DNA of 64,000 bases from an uncultured Sphingomonadales bacterium (GTDB taxonomy: Bacteria; Pseudomonadota; Alphaproteobacteria; Sphingomonadales; Sphingomonadaceae): contig CAIPUN010000083.1 in assembly GCA_903868245.1 (NCBI GenBank), positions 3,385-67,384 on the forward strand, in the 5' to 3' direction. Every line of letters starts with the position of its first letter. The first letter of the stretch is position 1. Position numbers and translations under genes: made by a program. Shown here piece by piece: positions 22,629 through 41,128 of this stretch. The notes under the pieces are model-generated. The model made no database searches. It saw only the letters and a program-made list of their open reading frames with translations, and was not told where the DNA came from.

Positions 22629-22667
22629 AGTGCTGTTTTATATGCTGGCAAGATGCGGCCAACCATT

Positions 22668-22738
22668 CGTCATCCTGAACTTGTTTCGGGATAACGCACC
22701 GCCGTCGCCTGTCATCCTGAAACAAGTTCAGGATGATG
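22668..22738. repeat. CGTC-type REP doublet (REPIN), 71-bp class
   Basis: CGTCATCCTGAACTTGTTTCGGGAT, 21-nt spacer, ATCCTGAAACAAGTTCAGGATGATG. Confidence 0.9.
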
Positions 22739-22814
22739 ATGGGTTTTTGGAATGACGATGGGCTTTTGGGATGACGATGATTTTTGGGATAACGAAGTCG
22801 GTTCAGGGTAACAG
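22739..22814 (-). repeat. Tandem array of four truncated REP ends (about 19-bp period)
   Basis: GACG-like ends at 22738, 22757, 22776, 22794 and 22813; unit on the minus strand is about ATCGTCATCCCAAAAGCCC. Confidence 0.85.
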
Positions 22815-22831
22815 ATTGCGGCGGTTCATGC

Positions 22832-23620
22832 TTAGGAAGTGCGCATGTCGTCCGTCAGCTCCACCCAAGTCGGGGCATGATCGCTCGCCTTTTCGCGACC
22901 ACGATGGTCCTTGTCGATGCCACAACTGATGAGGCGGTCGGCGACGGCGGGGCTTAACAACAGATGGTCGATGCGAAAGCCATGGTCGCGTTGCCATGCG
23001 CCCGCCTGAAAGTCCCAAAAGGTCCACACTCCGCCTTGCGGATAATGCGTGGCGAGCGCGTCGGTCCAGCCTTGGCCAAGCAAGGCGCGATAGGCGGCTA
23101 TGCTTTCGGGCTGACGCAGCGCATCATCCAACATCGCACCAGGGGCCCAGATATCATGTGCGTGCGGGATGACATTATAGTCACCTGCCAACACCGCAGG
23201 AATTTCTGCTGCCAGCAGCTCCGCCGCGCGGGCATATAACCGCTGCATCCATGCGAGCTTATAGTCGAATTTGGGGCCGGGTTGCGGGTTGCCATTGGGC
23301 AAATAAATGCTCGCGACGCGGATGCCGAAAACATCAGCCTCCAAATAACGCGCATGTTCGTCCAACGGATCGCCGGGCAAAGTGCGCTGCGTCTCTACAG
23401 GCTGTGCGCCTTTGGCGAGAATGGCGACGCCATTGAACGATTTTTGTCCATGCCAGATCGCGCCATAGCCAGCGCGTTCAAACTCCGCGATGGGAAAGCC
23501 CTCATCTTGGGACTTTACCTCTTGTAAACAGGCAATGTCGGGCTGGGTTTCCTCCAACCATTCCAGCAATCGGGGCAGGCGCGCCTTGACGCCATTAATA
23601 TTGTAAGTCGCAATACGCAT
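22832..23620 (-). CDS. xth: Exodeoxyribonuclease III
   Basis: ATYNING, CLQEVK, YLPNGN, GDYN, RIDHLL, SDHAP. Confidence 0.96.
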   Translation of the reverse strand: MRIATYNINGVKARLPRLLEWLEETQPDIACLQEVKSQDEGFPIAEFERAGYGAIWHGQKSFNGVAILAKGAQPVETQRTLPGDPLDEHARYLEADVFGIRVASIYLPNGNPQPGPKFDYKLAWMQRLYARAAELLAAEIPAVLAGDYNVIPHAHDIWAPGAMLDDALRQPESIAAYRALLGQGWTDALATHYPQGGVWTFWDFQAGAWQRDHGFRIDHLLLSPAVADRLISCGIDKDHRGREKASDHAPTWVELTDDMRTS

Positions 23621-25779: not shown

Positions 25780-29603
<3,824 letters not shown>

Positions 29604-29660
29604 TTAGGGGGGTTATGCGCTGGAGAAAACCAACTTTTCTGAACGCCCAATCACCGGGGA

Positions 29661-29754
29661 CATCGTCTCGTCAAAAACCGAAGCCCATCGTCATCCAAAA
29701 CCAAACCTATCGTCATCCTGAACCAAACCTATCGTCACCCGAAGCCAAACCCAT
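29661..29754 (+). repeat. Tandem array of four truncated REP ends (22-bp period)
   Basis: ATCGTC at 29662, 29687, 29709, 29731 and 29753; units CATCGTCATCCAAAACCAAACC / TATCGTCATCCTGAACCAAACC / TATCGTCACCCGAAGCCAAACC. Confidence 0.88.
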
Positions 29755-29825
29755 CGTCATCCTGAACTTGTTTCAGGATAACAAACCAATGTTGCCTGTT
29801 ATCCTGAAACAAGTTCAGGATGACG
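29755..29825. repeat. CGTC-type REPIN, 71-bp class
   Basis: CGTCATCCTGAACTTGTTTCAGGAT, 21-nt spacer, ATCCTGAAACAAGTTCAGGATGACG (perfect 25-bp inverted repeat). Confidence 0.92.
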
Positions 29826-29899
29826 AGGCGGAGAGGATTTACACATCATTGACGCAAATTGCCCTTTCAACCGCCGCCGCACCAGCCCATATAGACGCC

Positions 29900-31327
29900 A
29901 TGACTTATACAGACCCACGCTCTTATCTTTATCAACCTGGCCTGCTGGACCCCGACGCGGCGCAGCGCATTACGCGGGACGCTTTGAAAGCCTGCGATGA
30001 TGGCGAGCTCTACCTGCAATATAGCGCGACAGAGAGCTTTGGCTTTGACGATGGTCGCCTCAAAATGGCGGATTATTCGACGGGTTCGGGCTTTGGCCTG
30101 CGCGGTGTGTCGGGTGAGATGACCGGGTTCAGCCACGCCAATGACATGAGCGAGGCCGCGATCCGCCGTGCGGGGGAGACGTTGAAGCTGCTTGATCCCG
30201 CAAAGGATAAACCCGCGCCGCCACCGCGCCAGAACAACCGGCATTTATATACAGACGGCAATCCGCTTGAACTCGTGCCTTTCGCGCAAAAGGTTGCGTT
30301 GTGCCAACAGATCGACGCCGCAGCGCGGGCGCGTGACCCGCGCGTCGCACAAGTCAGCGTCAGCCTGTCGGGCAGTTGGAGCGTCGTTGAAATCGTCCGC
30401 GCCGATGGCTTTGTCGCCACCGACGTTCGGCCATTGGTCCGCCTGAATGTCTCCATCGTCGCGCAAGATGGCGATCGCCGCGAAACTGGAAATCATGGTT
30501 TTGGCGGGCGTTATCTGTACGACAAATTATTTGAAGAGCAGGAATGGGAACATGCCATTGACGTCGCCTTGGCGCAGGCGTTGACCAATTTGCGTTCGGT
30601 CGCGGCGCCCGCCGGCGAAATGACCGTGTTGCTTGGCCCCGGCTGGCCCGGCGTCTTGCTGCATGAGGCCGTTGGCCATGGCTTGGAAGGCGATTTCAAC
30701 CGCAAGGGCAGCAGTGCCTTTTCTGGAAAAATCGGGCAGCGCGTGGCCGCCCCCGGCGTTACTGTTGTCGATGATGGGACGATGCAAAATCGGCGCGGAT
30801 CCTTGTCGATAGATGATGAAGGCACGCCGACTCAGGAGAATGTCTTGATCGAAGACGGCATATTGCGCGCCTATATGCAGGACCGCATGAACGCCCGCCT
30901 GATGGGCGTGGAGCCCACGGGTAATGGCCGCCGCGAAAGTTTCGCCCATGCACCGATGCCACGCATGACCAACACCTTCATGCGCAGCGGCAATGATGAT
31001 CCTGCCGAACTGTTGAGCCGCGTCAAAAACGGCATCTTCGCCAAAAGCTTCGGCGGCGGGCAGGTTGACATTGTGTCGGGCAAATTCGTGTTTAGCTGCA
31101 CCGAGGCCTATTTGGTTAAGAACGGCAAGCTGGGCGACCCGATCAAGGGCGCGACCCTGATCGGCGATGGCCCGACGGCGCTTAACAAGGTCATTGGTCT
31201 TGGCAATGACATGGCGCTGGATGAAGGCGTTGGCGTCTGCGGCAAGGCGGGGCAAAGTGTGCCGGCAGGCGTCGGGCAACCCACAACTTTGGTGAGCGCG
31301 CTGACGGTGGGTGGAACAGCTGGTTGA
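29900..31327 (+). CDS. tldD: Metalloprotease TldD
   Basis: HEAVGHGLEGDFNRKG, GNGRRES...PMPRMTNT, CGKAGQSVPAGVGQPT. Start taken at MTYTDP, not at the REP-spanning ATG 29615. Confidence 0.95.
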   Translation: MTYTDPRSYLYQPGLLDPDAAQRITRDALKACDDGELYLQYSATESFGFDDGRLKMADYSTGSGFGLRGVSGEMTGFSHANDMSEAAIRRAGETLKLLDPAKDKPAPPPRQNNRHLYTDGNPLELVPFAQKVALCQQIDAAARARDPRVAQVSVSLSGSWSVVEIVRADGFVATDVRPLVRLNVSIVAQDGDRRETGNHGFGGRYLYDKLFEEQEWEHAIDVALAQALTNLRSVAAPAGEMTVLLGPGWPGVLLHEAVGHGLEGDFNRKGSSAFSGKIGQRVAAPGVTVVDDGTMQNRRGSLSIDDEGTPTQENVLIEDGILRAYMQDRMNARLMGVEPTGNGRRESFAHAPMPRMTNTFMRSGNDDPAELLSRVKNGIFAKSFGGGQVDIVSGKFVFSCTEAYLVKNGKLGDPIKGATLIGDGPTALNKVIGLGNDMALDEGVGVCGKAGQSVPAGVGQPTTLVSALTVGGTAG

Positions 31328-34215: not shown

Positions 34216-34267
34216 CCTGAACTTGTTTGACCTGCGGTCATTTCATTCCAGGATAACAGGCGACGAT
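34216..34267 (+). repeat. 52-bp direct repeat, copy 1 (REP half with 20-nt insert)
   Basis: CCTGAACTTGTTT-GACCTGCGGTCATTTCATTC-CAGGATAACAGGCGACGAT. Confidence 0.92.
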
Positions 34268-34767
34268 GCGGAACTTAAAAAACCACTTTCCTACAAATAA
34301 CCATATAGGTTATCTGATTCGCGTCATGCAGGCCGCGGTCTAGAACGTGGGTCGGGATGATGGGAACGCTGGTGCGGGAACGCGCTGGCACGGCCGGCGC
34401 GAAAGGGTGTTTGCTTCTGCCTTATAAAAGGGCCTGTTGCATCAAGCTCTGAACAGCGCACAAAAGGCTGGGTGTAGCGGGCAACCGCCCCGTTCGTCAT
34501 GGACGGCCTTGGGGGCTTTAGGAACCTTCATCCCAAGGAAGCAGCCCAGCCAAGATAAAGGCGGCTCCTAGAATTAGACTGATGGAACAAACGAGCCTTA
34601 ATCAACCAACGCCATCAGCCGGAAGCAGCACCAGCGCTTCCGCGTCGGCCGTCCCCTTTTTTCTATGCGTGTAGACGCGCGCCAATTTTGTAGGAAATAA
34701 TGTTACATGTGTAGGAAATTATGGTGTTGGCTCCAACACCGTCACCCTGAGACACCTACAACGTTAC

Positions 34768-34819
34768 CCTGAACGTGTTTGACCTGCGGTCATTTCATTC
34801 CAGGATAACAGGCGACGAT
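34768..34819 (+). repeat. 52-bp direct repeat, copy 2
   Basis: Matches copy 1 at 51 of 52 positions (AACGTG vs AACTTG). Confidence 0.92.
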
Positions 34820-34853
34820 ATAGGTGGCGCGATGACGGCCGGCGTACTGCCGT

Positions 34854-40946: not shown

Positions 40947-40965
40947 GGGTGCTTCCCTCTTTCTT

Positions 40966-41054: not shown

Positions 41055-41128
41055 GTTTGGGGAAGAGTAGCACCGTAAAGTCACTTACAACTTGCTTCAG
41101 CATAACAGTTCTCTAGGGTTCACCGCAT

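What the first reader, a model, noticed from the sequence alone, without database searches (positions are those of the whole stretch)
29661..29825. Second, independent REP-foot array (22-bp period) between tgt and tldD
Same architecture with a different period: three 22-bp steps of (C/T)ATCGTCA(T/C)CC...CCAAACC plus a more degenerate distal unit (25 bp), running directly into a perfect 71-bp REPIN. The different period and flank imply local, independent generation. A shared flank CCAAA(A)CC(C/T)AT precedes CGTC here, at 22741 (minus) and partly at 41055-41061, hinting at a preferred target or an extended end. Single extra feet also occur at 34740 (22 bp before the next), 34194 and about 23645. 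Together these suggest a recurrent end-duplication process that keeps a record of past events, loosely analogous to repeat duplication at a CRISPR leader (speculative).
Basis: partly seen in the sequence, partly recalled or inferred. Interest (0 to 1): 0.65.

Follow-up and report, generated by a model that had tools for sequence, protein, structure and literature searches.

The report
Half-hairpin tandem array beside a REPIN
Between the tgt and tldD genes, the outer end of a perfect hairpin-forming repeat (its CGTC tag, the first half of the stem and about 10 flanking bases) has been copied head-to-tail three to four times. The same one-sided copying occurs at about one in seven such repeats in this bacterial group and varies between species. 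I found no description of it in the papers I searched, and it is most likely a by-product of copying or nicking DNA at the hairpin, not a working device.

Summary
There are three 22-nt units (29689-29754) plus a degenerate 20-nt unit (29669-29688). Each unit is CGTC + 4-9 nt of the 5' half-stem + a CCAAACCYAT linker. They run into a perfect 71-bp inverted REP pair (29755-29825).

The repeat is a CGTC-tagged REP, a known class. The whole genome holds about 120 copies. About 14% of them carry such tag-side arrays, against 3% at random places. Every non-coding tandem array of period 14-25 in the genome is of this kind. Arrays occur only on the tag side. They are found across the genus and in 8 of 86 genera of Sphingomonadales.

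At the orthologous tgt-tldD site, relatives have 1, 2 or 3 extra units, or no element at all. Other arrays also differ from the closest relative.

Neither a RAYT nor an IS110 transposase was found in this assembly. The known partner of CGTC hairpins is the Ssn GIY-YIG single-strand nuclease. In three relatives a gene of that type lies between two of these REPs. Its presence tracks REP number, but this assembly lacks it.

Best reading: locally generated minisatellites, seeded by tandem duplication of the REP's 5' module and then evolving like any VNTR. The trigger (hairpin stalling or an Ssn nick) is inferred. The CRISPR-like 'ordered record' idea is not supported.

The parts
28467..29594 (-). 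tgt (queuine tRNA-ribosyltransferase), left neighbour, divergent
   Evidence: Pfam TGT, E 4.7e-156
29664..29688 (+). Distal degenerate units: overlapping tags CGTCT / CGTCAAAAACCGAAGCCCAT (U0). The AAACCGAAGCC part is older flank, shared with relatives that carry a different element here.
   Evidence: Sequence; G021, G045, G001 and G100 carry ...aaaccgaagcc followed by another repeat
29689..29710 (+). Unit U1, 22 nt: CGTC ATCC AAAAC + linker CAAACCTAT
29711..29732 (+). Unit U2, 22 nt: CGTC ATCCTGAAC (intact tag + full 5' half-stem + first loop base) + linker CAAACCTAT
   Evidence: 14-nt arm 29710-29723, 100% complementary to 29813-29826
29733..29754 (+). Unit U3, 22 nt: CGTC ACCC GAAGC + linker CAAACCCAT. 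Shared with the orthologous array of G044 (catcatcacccgaagccaaacc).
29755..29782 (+). Left REP of the REPIN: tag CGTC, 8-bp stem ATCCTGAA/TTCAGGAT, 5-nt loop CTTGT, tail AAC
   Evidence: DNA fold -6.3 kcal/mol, z -5.0; about 120 copies in the genome
29783..29797 (.). REPIN spacer
29798..29825 (-). Right REP of the REPIN (tag on the minus strand, GACG at 29822-29825). No array on this side at this locus.
   Evidence: The whole 71-nt REPIN folds as one hairpin, -33.9 kcal/mol, z -15.5, with the tags at its base.
29855..29899 (+). Conserved tldD leader/promoter block, retained in species with and without the REPIN
   Evidence: Alignment of relatives
29900..31327 (+). tldD (PmbA/TldD metallopeptidase), right neighbour
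   Evidence: Pfam PmbA_TldD 1st/2nd/3rd domains
22710..22835 (-). Sister case in the window: right REP of the 22668 REPIN with three 19-nt tag units, plus older degenerate units reaching to about 22835
   Evidence: TRF 22731-22795, period 19, score 88. The closest relative G108 lacks exactly the three 19-nt units (56-nt gap).

Best explanation
The array is a locally generated minisatellite. It was made by tandem duplication of the 5' module of a CGTC-tagged REP. That module is the G-poor linker, the CGTC tag and at most the first 13 nt of the REP (the 5' half-stem up to the first loop base). It lies at the outer base of a REPIN.

Shown:
- The units are copies of flank + REP start.
- The arrays are strictly on the tag side.
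- Each locus has its own linker and period.
- Unit number changes between related species.
- Any unit in an array can be re-duplicated.

Inferred:
- The seeding event is a copying or repair error provoked where the replication or repair machinery meets the base of the very stable REPIN/REP hairpin. A single-strand nick that Ssn-type nucleases make a few nt 5' of the tag may contribute.
- After seeding, ordinary repeat slippage or unequal exchange adds and removes units.
- The array itself most likely has no function. It sits between the divergent tgt and tldD promoters, where relatives carry nothing or other elements.
For: - Unit anatomy and perfect REPIN.
- In this genome, 21 of 149 REP ends carry at least 1 extra tag unit 10-32 nt upstream, against 3.2% at random places. 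Six carry at least 2 units, against 0.1%.
- Unbiased TRF over the 1.97-Mb genome: all seven arrays of period 14-25 (six not a multiple of 3, plus the 21-nt array at C151, whose consensus carries the tag) are REP-tag arrays.
- Polarity: 77 of 303 on the tag side, 12 of 303 (about background) on the tail side.
- The match of units to the REP stops at +8 or +13 and never goes further in this genome.
- The pattern CGTCAYCC-N9-18-CGTCAYSCTGAAC is found in 14 of 41 genomes of the genus and 8 of 86 genera of the order, with 0 hits for the reversed control.
- Orthologous tgt-tldD REPIN: 1 extra unit (G044, G080), 2 (G100, G109, G110, G115), 3 (window, G066); an 83-bp empty spacer in G008, G009 and G046.
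- Other loci against the closest relative G108: 3 versus 0 units of 19 nt (window array 1), 3 versus 4 (C74). Against G081 at C8: 2 versus 0 on the left and 2 versus 3 on the right.
- Seeding by plain duplication of pre-existing flank. G001 has ttcgCCAAACCTAT|CGTC with no extra unit, while G044 has the same flank repeated as the linker. At the C8 left array the linker CTAACGCCC... copies the flank present in G081.
- Duplication inside arrays: two identical 25-nt units at C8 that differ from the REP.
- As single-stranded DNA the array is unstructured (-1.9 kcal/mol, z -0.3). The REPIN is a -33.9 kcal/mol hairpin whose base is the tag.
- No Y1_Tnp or IS110 transposase in this assembly or in the REP-rich relatives searched.
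Against: - No replication-strand bias was detected with local GC skew as proxy (4:10 in this genome, 19:23 in relatives, not significant). A purely lagging-strand hairpin model therefore gets no support.
- Hairpin stalling alone does not explain why the 12-15 nt 5' of every tag are G-poor.
- At window array 1 the new linker (CAAAAGCCCA) is not a copy of the flank seen in G108 (CCGCCT). Not every seed looks like a simple flank + REP duplication.
- Arrays are absent on the tail side even of solo REPs, which hints that the tag, and hence a tag-reading protein, matters.
- No experiment or read-level data were available.
Confidence: 0.55

Rival explanations
1. Enzyme-made scars. The cognate Ssn-type GIY-YIG nuclease nicks the tag strand a few nt 5' of CGTC whenever it is single-stranded. 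Faulty repair or displacement synthesis from that nick re-copies linker + tag + half-stem. On this reading the arrays report nuclease activity.
For: - SsnA of N. meningitidis binds CGTC-tagged hairpins as ssDNA and cuts 3 nt upstream, in the variable flank, which is inside the duplicated module (PMC11893778).
- In G021, G008 and G020 a single-domain GIY-YIG gene is bracketed by this REP, tags outward. In G008 and G020 a tag array stands right beside it.
- The subfamily (at least 60% identity) is present in 17 of 41 genomes of the genus. Median REP count is 58 with it and about 15 without it (Mann-Whitney p 1.2e-5).
- The strict tag-side polarity fits this model.
Against: - This assembly lacks the cognate gene. 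The orthologous ruvA-adjacent site (C50:109-140) holds a solo REP.
- G045, G009 and G108 also lack it, yet carry arrays.
- Array hits per REP are no higher with the gene (0.022) than without it (0.034).
- The inferred left edges of duplicated segments lie at -5 to -14, not at a fixed -3.
- Our REP does not fit the published SRM search string.
Confidence: 0.2
2. Remnants of repeated REPIN arrivals at one site. A new copy lands in, or recombines at, the loop of a resident REP and leaves the resident 5' half behind. Units would then be successive half-elements.
For: - The same site holds different REPIN classes, or a double-tagged solo REP, in different species (tgt-tldD site 1: G001 long class versus G044/G045 short class; loci B, E, H).
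- In G108 at locus E a half-REP + 8-nt linker precedes a complete REPIN, where G009, G046 and G081 have one solo REP.
- Unit matches end at the loop.
Against: - Linkers within one array are near-identical and are copies of the local flank. This fits local duplication, not independent arrivals.
- No leftover 3' halves are seen on the other side.
- Linkers at different loci are not related.
Confidence: 0.08
3. Selected binding-site array. The CGTCAYCC units are iteron-like sites for a protein and tune the divergent tgt/tldD promoters, or local DNA structure.
For: - A 22-bp period is two helical turns.
- Some arrays are conserved among three species (locus F: G000, G009, G081).
- The G-poor composition of linkers is maintained while their sequence drifts.
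Against: - Periods range from 8 to 32.
- Neighbouring genes are unrelated from locus to locus.
- The tgt-tldD spacer is empty (83 bp) or filled by other repeats in many species with the same genes.
- No promoter-like or terminator-like site lies in the array, and there is no Rfam family there.
Confidence: 0.07
4. One reading: a polarised, CRISPR-leader-like process adds one unit per event at the REP end and so keeps a time-ordered record.
For: At window array 1 the three extra units lie between the REP and an older unit shared with G108. Distal units are often the most degenerate.
Against: - In the window array the REP-proximal unit U3 is the diverged one shared with G044, while the intact U2 is distal to it.
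- At C74, G108 multiplied the distal unit type and G000 the proximal type.
- Identical internal units differ from the REP (C8).
- There are no spacers and no dedicated integrase.
- Decay at array edges is expected in any tandem array.
Confidence: 0.05
5. By-product of a REP-targeting transposase or recombinase (RAYT/Y1 or IS110/IS1111 family).
For: RAYTs cut beside GTAG REPs (PMC8266576). IS110-family elements land in REPs, and tandem expansion at their loci has been reported (bioRxiv 10.64898/2026.08.14.744561; I read only the outline).
Against: - PF01797: no match in this assembly or in the REP-rich G045, G020, G044 and G043; one below-threshold hit in G021 (E 0.08). The Y1 genes of other relatives are not flanked by this REP.
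- PF01548: absent from this genome and from all REP-rich genomes.
- The base after ...GAAC in units is T in only about 3 of 12 arrays, so there is no shared CT core.
Confidence: 0.03

Closest known systems
CGTC-tagged REPs (Di Nocera, De Gregorio & Rocco 2013, BMC Genomics 14:522; PMC3733652)
   Same: Unpaired CGTC tag at one end, 8-bp stem starting with A-T, 5-nt loop, 3-nt tail (CCA in the long class here), head-to-head dimers predominant, alphaproteobacterial hosts including sphingomonads, no transposase gene attached.
   Different: That survey calls clusters 'rare' for CGTC families. It describes reiteration of whole REPs or dimers with flank, not one-sided arrays of incomplete (non-folding) tag + half-stem units. 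It does not mention a G-poor 5' linker.
NTS/SRM hairpin repeats with Ssn GIY-YIG single-strand nucleases (Nat Commun 2025, PMC11893778)
   Same: CGTCAT-tagged oriented hairpin repeat. A small single-domain GIY-YIG gene is bracketed by two repeats (seen here in G021, G008 and G020). Repeat number tracks gene presence. Sphingomonas and Rhizorhabdus are named as rich hosts. The nuclease cuts in the variable flank just 5' of the tag, inside the module duplicated here.
   Different: The REP here does not fit the published degenerate SRM string. The window's genome lacks the REP-bracketed subfamily. That paper does not mention tandem repeats at all (0 occurrences of 'tandem'). No activity has been tested for this subfamily.
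REPIN-RAYT systems and E. coli BIMEs
   Same: Inverted REP doublets forming a long hairpin, dispersed in intergenic DNA, sometimes clustered; a tag that orients the hairpin.
   Different: GTAG tag and a Y1 (HUH) transposase define those systems. Both are absent here. BIME arrays alternate whole REPs in opposite orientation, not direct half-units.
Bacterial minisatellites / VNTR loci (e.g. MIRU-VNTR)
   Same: Short non-coding units in tandem, copy number differing between close relatives, internal units duplicating, edges decaying.
   Different: Here the arrays are systematically anchored to one end of a dispersed hairpin repeat, and the unit includes part of that repeat.
CRISPR repeat duplication at the leader
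   Same: Polar position next to a defined end; units of 20-odd nt.
   Different: No spacers, no cas genes, no fixed unit length, no strict proximal addition. This is an analogy only.

Membership tests
CGTC-tagged REP superfamily | Unpaired CGTC (or TGTC/CCTC) motif at one end of the hairpin | tested here: met
   109 of 262 strand readings of the palindromic hairpin carry CGTC, so nearly all of the ~130 hairpins do on one strand; the next most frequent 4-mers are the reverse reads of the tails
CGTC-tagged REP superfamily | 8-9 bp stem beginning with A-T pairs, 4-5 nt loop, 3-nt tail | tested here: met
   ATCCTGAA / CTTGT / TTCAGGAT + AAC or CCA(T)
CGTC-tagged REP superfamily | Mostly head-to-head dimers (tags outward) | tested here: met
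   Paired + / - hits 42 or about 60 nt apart throughout the genome list
CGTC-tagged REP superfamily | No associated tyrosine transposase | tested here: met
   PF01797 absent
REPIN-RAYT system | Single-copy RAYT (Y1_Tnp) gene flanked by its REPs | tested here: not met
   No match in G000. Five weak ~220-aa matches among 24 same-genus relatives; the one fetched from the genus (G016) and five from other genera show no copy of this REP.
REPIN-RAYT system | GTAG guide tetranucleotide | tested here: not met
   The tag is CGTC
Ssn / SRM system | Single-domain GIY-YIG (cd10448-like) gene bracketed by the hairpin repeat | tested here: inconclusive
   Met in relatives G021, G008 and G020. Not met in the window's own genome, whose two small GIY-YIG genes are flanked by other repeats. 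cd10448 membership itself was not scored; Pfam GIY-YIG matches, and the PDB relatives are UPF0213 proteins.
Ssn / SRM system | Repeat fits the SRM search string HGTCWYN(0-2)YYVSBRH... | tested here: not met
   By hand against CGTCATCCTGAAC and CGTCACCCTGAAC, positions V and S fail (string)
Ssn / SRM system | ssDNA-specific cleavage a few nt 5' of the tag | not testable with these tools
   Needs purified protein and oligonucleotides
VNTR / minisatellite | Copy number differs among related genomes at the orthologous locus | tested here: met
   1, 2 or 3 extra units at tgt-tldD; differences at loci A, C and D
CRISPR-like array | Repeats separated by unique spacers, with adaptation genes | tested here: not met
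   Units abut directly. The linker is the same within an array. I ran no search for cas genes.
IS110/IS1111 target-site expansion | Resident DEDD (IS110) transposase | tested here: not met
   PF01548 absent from G000 and from REP-rich relatives

The most novel reading that the evidence does not exclude
The tag-side arrays are scars of the still unknown reaction by which Ssn-associated CGTC hairpin repeats are nicked, repaired and multiplied. A nick just 5' of the tag on the single-stranded hairpin strand would be mended by synthesis that re-copies linker + tag + half-stem. If so, array gain would be a natural read-out of Ssn activity in cells. It would also be a first mechanistic handle on how CGTC REPs, which have no transposase, spread, and on why every tag is preceded by a G-poor linker.
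Probability: 0.17. Interest if true: 0.7.

Novelty: new variant of a known kind. Interest (0 to 1): 0.45.

Why it matters
CGTC-tagged REPs are abundant in alphaproteobacteria, Neisseria, Rickettsia and Wolbachia, yet how they arise and spread is unknown. The only partner enzyme, Ssn, was described in 2025, with a role shown only in Neisseria transformation.

A regular, polar rearrangement at the very place where that enzyme cuts gives a concrete phenotype to assay: unit gain and loss at REP ends. The conditions to compare are REP orientation, ssn, recA and sbcCD.

Practically, these arrays are the main source of short non-coding tandem repeats in these genomes. They are therefore ready-made strain-typing markers and a predictable cause of assembly breaks.

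If they turn out to be plain slippage next to a hairpin, the finding is a tidy natural example of palindrome-provoked duplication and nothing more.

Tried and rejected
- RAYT. Searched with PF01797 in the genome, 40 relatives and 14 further genomes. It is absent where REPs are many, and the Y1 genes fetched (one from the genus, five from other genera) are not flanked by this REP.
- IS110/bridge recombinase. PF01548 is absent, and there is no CT core at unit borders.
- Conserved flank motif. Column-permutation test on the 14 nt before 119 tags shows no excess of similar pairs; only a composition bias exists.
- Replication-strand bias. Local GC skew at 14 + 42 arrays, not significant.
- A fixed 'ruler' of about 20-22 nt. 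Rejected once periods of 8, 12-16 and 25-32 turned up.
- Target-site duplication. One 19-nt direct duplication flanks the whole insertion at locus A in G108. None was seen at loci C and F or at tgt-tldD site 1, so this is not general.
- RNA gene. Rfam gives only sub-threshold miRNA-hairpin look-alikes on the REPIN.
- Promoter or terminator. None found.
- Raw-read check of unit number.
- Literature. No paper in the library combines REP, tandem duplication, hairpin and slippage.

Full report
**What is there**

The spacer between tgt (28467-29594, minus strand) and tldD (from 29900, plus strand) holds a perfect inverted pair of REP hairpins, a REPIN, at 29755-29825. Its arms are 30 nt long, 100% complementary and 13 nt apart.

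Each REP reads CGTC-ATCCTGAA-CTTGT-TTCAGGAT-AAC. Directly 5' of the left REP, Tandem Repeats Finder reports a 22-nt period with 4.0 copies and score 113. Read in register with the tags, the array consists of:
- three 22-nt units, U1 29689-29710, U2 29711-29732 and U3 29733-29754
- a degenerate 20-nt unit, U0 29669-29688.

Every unit is CGTC, plus 4-9 nt that match the 5' half of the stem, plus the linker CAAACC(C/T)AT. As single-stranded DNA the array has no structure (-1.9 kcal/mol, z -0.3). The REPIN folds into one long hairpin of -33.9 kcal/mol whose base is the tag.

**Is it more than chance, and is it general?**

The window's genome is a 1.97-Mb draft of 202 contigs, 95% complete. It belongs to Sphingomonadales: the best Tgt relatives, at 82% identity, are Sphingomonas and Parasphingorhabdus MAGs. 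It holds about 120 copies of this REP in three stem variants, mostly as head-to-head pairs of 71 or about 89 bp.

Walking upstream from each tag gave these counts:
- 21 of 149 REP ends have at least one further tag unit 10-32 nt away, against 3.2% at random places.
- Six have two or more, against 0.1%.
- Periods run from 12 to 32 nt, with most at 19-23.
- The match of a unit to the REP stops at +8 (CGTCAYCC) or +13 (...CTGAAC, the first loop base).

An unbiased TRF run over the whole genome found 36 arrays of period 8-40 with at least 2.5 copies. Most have periods that are multiples of three, which would fit coding repeats (I did not check their positions). All seven of period 14-25 are REP-tag arrays: six whose period is not a multiple of three, plus the 21-nt array at C151, whose consensus carries the tag.

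Arrays stand on the tag side only: 77 of 303 REPs, against 12 of 303 on the tail side. The tail-side figure is about background, and several of those cases are really tag-side arrays of double-tagged REPs. That sample was enriched for arrays.

In the window itself, extra units stand before the tags at 22738(-), 29755, 23673, 34216 and 34762.

**Distribution**

The REP family occurs in 40 of 41 sampled genomes of the genus, with 0-170 copies. A strict array pattern, CGTCAYCC-N9-18-CGTCAYSCTGAAC, hits 14 of these 41 genomes and never in the reversed control. In a sample of 301 Sphingomonadales genomes it hits 13 genomes in 8 of 86 genera, including other families.

Those genomes widen the picture:
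- periods as short as 8 (CGTCATCC six times in G043)
- long arrays (G253:C59)
- a few units that run on to +19 to +22 (G394, G351).

I saw no unit that contains a complete hairpin within the 10-32-nt spacing I searched.

**Is unit number variable?**

Yes. At the tgt-tldD site:
- G008, G009 and G046 have an 83-84-bp spacer with no element.
- Other species have other repeats there.
- The orthologous REPIN (same right flank, gacgaggcggagaggattt...) carries 1 extra unit in G044 and G080, 2 in G100, G109, G110 and G115, and 3 in the window and G066.
- G081 has arrays on both sides.

A second insertion site in the same spacer holds a long-class REPIN without extra units in G001. In G044 it holds a short-class REPIN with two units whose linker, CCAAACCCAT, is a copy of the flank that precedes the tag in G001.

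Comparisons at other loci, the first two against the closest relative G108 (90-96% identity in flanks):
- Window array 1 has three 19-nt units that G108 lacks (a 56-nt gap).
- At C74 the count is 3 units against 4.
- At C8, against G081, it is 2 against 0 on the left and 2 against 3 on the right.
- The array at C6:34459 is conserved in G009 and G081.

So the arrays are real, heritable, locally made, and gain or lose units on the time scale of speciation. They are not hypervariable.

**What the pattern says about the process**

- In two clear cases the linker is a copy of the pre-existing flank (tgt-tldD site 1 and C8 left). The seeding event there is a plain tandem duplication spanning flank + tag + start of stem.
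- Later events copy any unit. C8 has two identical 25-nt units that differ from the REP. At C74 different unit types multiplied in the two lineages. In the window array the REP-proximal unit U3 is the old, diverged one shared with G044, while the intact U2 lies distal to it. This is ordinary tandem-repeat behaviour, not a time-ordered record.
- The 12-15 nt before every tag, with or without an array, hold only 5-10% G (genome 27.5%), about 40% C, and T at -1 in 61%. Their sequences are nevertheless no more alike than column-permuted controls. I cannot explain it.
- Local GC skew gave no significant strand bias (4:10 here, 19:23 in relatives).
- At window array 1 the new linker is not a copy of the flank seen in G108. 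At least one seed is not explained by simple duplication.

**Which enzyme, if any?**

None was found. PF01797 has no match in this assembly or in the 99-100% complete, REP-rich G045, G020, G044 and G043. G021 gave one below-threshold hit (E 0.08). The weak Y1 genes of a few relatives are not flanked by this REP. IS110-family transposases, which target REPs elsewhere, are absent too. This agrees with the published statement that CGTC REPs lack a dedicated transposase (PMC3733652).

The literature search turned up the relevant family. Ssn proteins are roughly 95-aa single-domain GIY-YIG nucleases. They bind CGTC-tagged hairpins (NTS/SRM) only as single strands and cut three bases upstream of the tag, in the variable flank. 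Their genes are typically bracketed by the repeats, and Sphingomonas and Rhizorhabdus are named as rich hosts (PMC11893778).

I tested this here.
- One subfamily of small GIY-YIG genes is bracketed by this REP, tags outward, in G021, G008 (both beside ruvA) and G020. In effect it is a long-class REPIN with the gene inside. Tag arrays stand right next to the G008 and G020 copies.
- Across 41 genomes of the genus the subfamily (at least 60% identity) is present in 17. Their median REP count is 58, against about 15 in the other 24 (Mann-Whitney p 1.2e-5, not corrected for phylogeny).
- The window's own assembly lacks it. The orthologous ruvA-adjacent site holds a solo REP (C50:109-140). The two small GIY-YIG genes that are present (C20:31775-32065, and a fragment at the end of C59) are flanked by two other repeat families.
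- G045 (170 REPs), G009 and G108 lack it as well, yet have arrays. Array hits per REP are no higher with the gene than without it (0.022 against 0.034).
- The REP also fails the published SRM search string.

The Ssn link therefore explains what kind of repeat this is and which nuclease should be tested. It is not shown to make the arrays.

**Verdict**

The finding is a genuine member of a recurrent, polar and apparently undescribed arrangement of a known repeat class. I found no description of it in the REP papers I read or in the full-text searches.

Most likely the arrays are minisatellites seeded by a duplication error where replication or repair meets the base of the REPIN hairpin, or a nick just outside it. 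They are then maintained by slippage and have no function of their own. I put about 0.55 on that whole statement. I am much more confident in 'locally generated tandem duplication of the REP 5' module' than in the trigger.

The enzyme-scar version (about 0.2) is the interesting alternative and is directly testable. The CRISPR-like record, RAYT or IS110 action, a regulatory array and an assembly artefact are each unlikely.

Earlier notes of this scan on half-unit arrays beside palindromes in unrelated phyla (unchecked AI notes) suggest the phenomenon may be wider than CGTC REPs. If so, that favours a general structure-provoked mechanism.

Noticed in passing
window 29600-29900 and its orthologues (loci L117-L147): The tgt-tldD spacer is a hot spot. 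Across species it is empty (83 bp), or holds one or two REPINs of either size class at two distinct sites, or a different palindromic element (ccctgagcagc...gtcgaaggg...cccttcgacaggctcaggg), or a 'cctccccatcgcaagtcgatggggagg' hairpin, or, in G010, an inserted pair of short open reading frames that I did not analyse.
   Followed up: partly
genome contig C20:31700-32300 (outside the window): A 96-aa single-domain GIY-YIG (Ssn-like) gene is flanked on both sides by a second repeat family (gtgataggcaccagcctgcgctggggcgac and its inverse). This is probably another nuclease-repeat pair in the same genome.
   Followed up: partly
genome contig C59:10425-10659 (contig end): A third small GIY-YIG gene is cut by the contig end (59% identical to one in G394). 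It is followed by the 'cccttcgacag...ctgctcagggc' repeat family seen in the tgt-tldD spacer of relatives.
   Followed up: no
window 34216-34290 and 34762-34820; relatives L148, L154, L165, L179: REP variants have a long insert in the loop, so the 3' half-stem is displaced. In the window: gtttgacctgcggtcatttcattccagg. In G020, G045 and G015: ttggctctgccagcctacggctcc. The REP loop looks like a preferred place for insertions.
   Followed up: no
locus L168 (G108:C19:3380-3620), orthologous to window 22640-22850: In G108 the whole ~165-nt insertion (REPIN plus older tag units) is flanked by a 19-nt direct duplication, GTCYGCCAGCTCCACCYAA, which is present once in the empty sites of G078, G020 and G008. 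The array at this locus also has a 19-nt period. No such duplication was seen at the three other filled/empty comparisons.
   Followed up: partly
genome loci C22:38794 and C24:4600, and their orthologues (loci E and H): At the same site some species have a solo REP tagged at both ends (CGTC-hairpin-GACG) and others a full REPIN. At C22 one flank-plus-tag unit has been copied symmetrically to both sides, giving a perfect 59-nt palindrome.
   Followed up: partly
genome contigs C191:2152-2660 and C50:190-369: The 3' end of ruvA is present twice. C191, where ruvA is joined directly to ruvB, encodes a RuvB N-terminus 99% identical to that of species G008. This suggests a second strain or contaminant contig in this metagenome-like assembly (contamination estimate 4%).
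   Followed up: no
all REP ends, e.g. window 22654-22667, 29741-29754, 40952-40965: The 12-15 nt 5' of every CGTC tag are strongly G-poor and C-rich, with T at -1. The sequence drifts between orthologues (for example GCACACTCTCGCT against CTCTCTCTCTCT) while the composition is kept. I have no explanation.
   Followed up: partly
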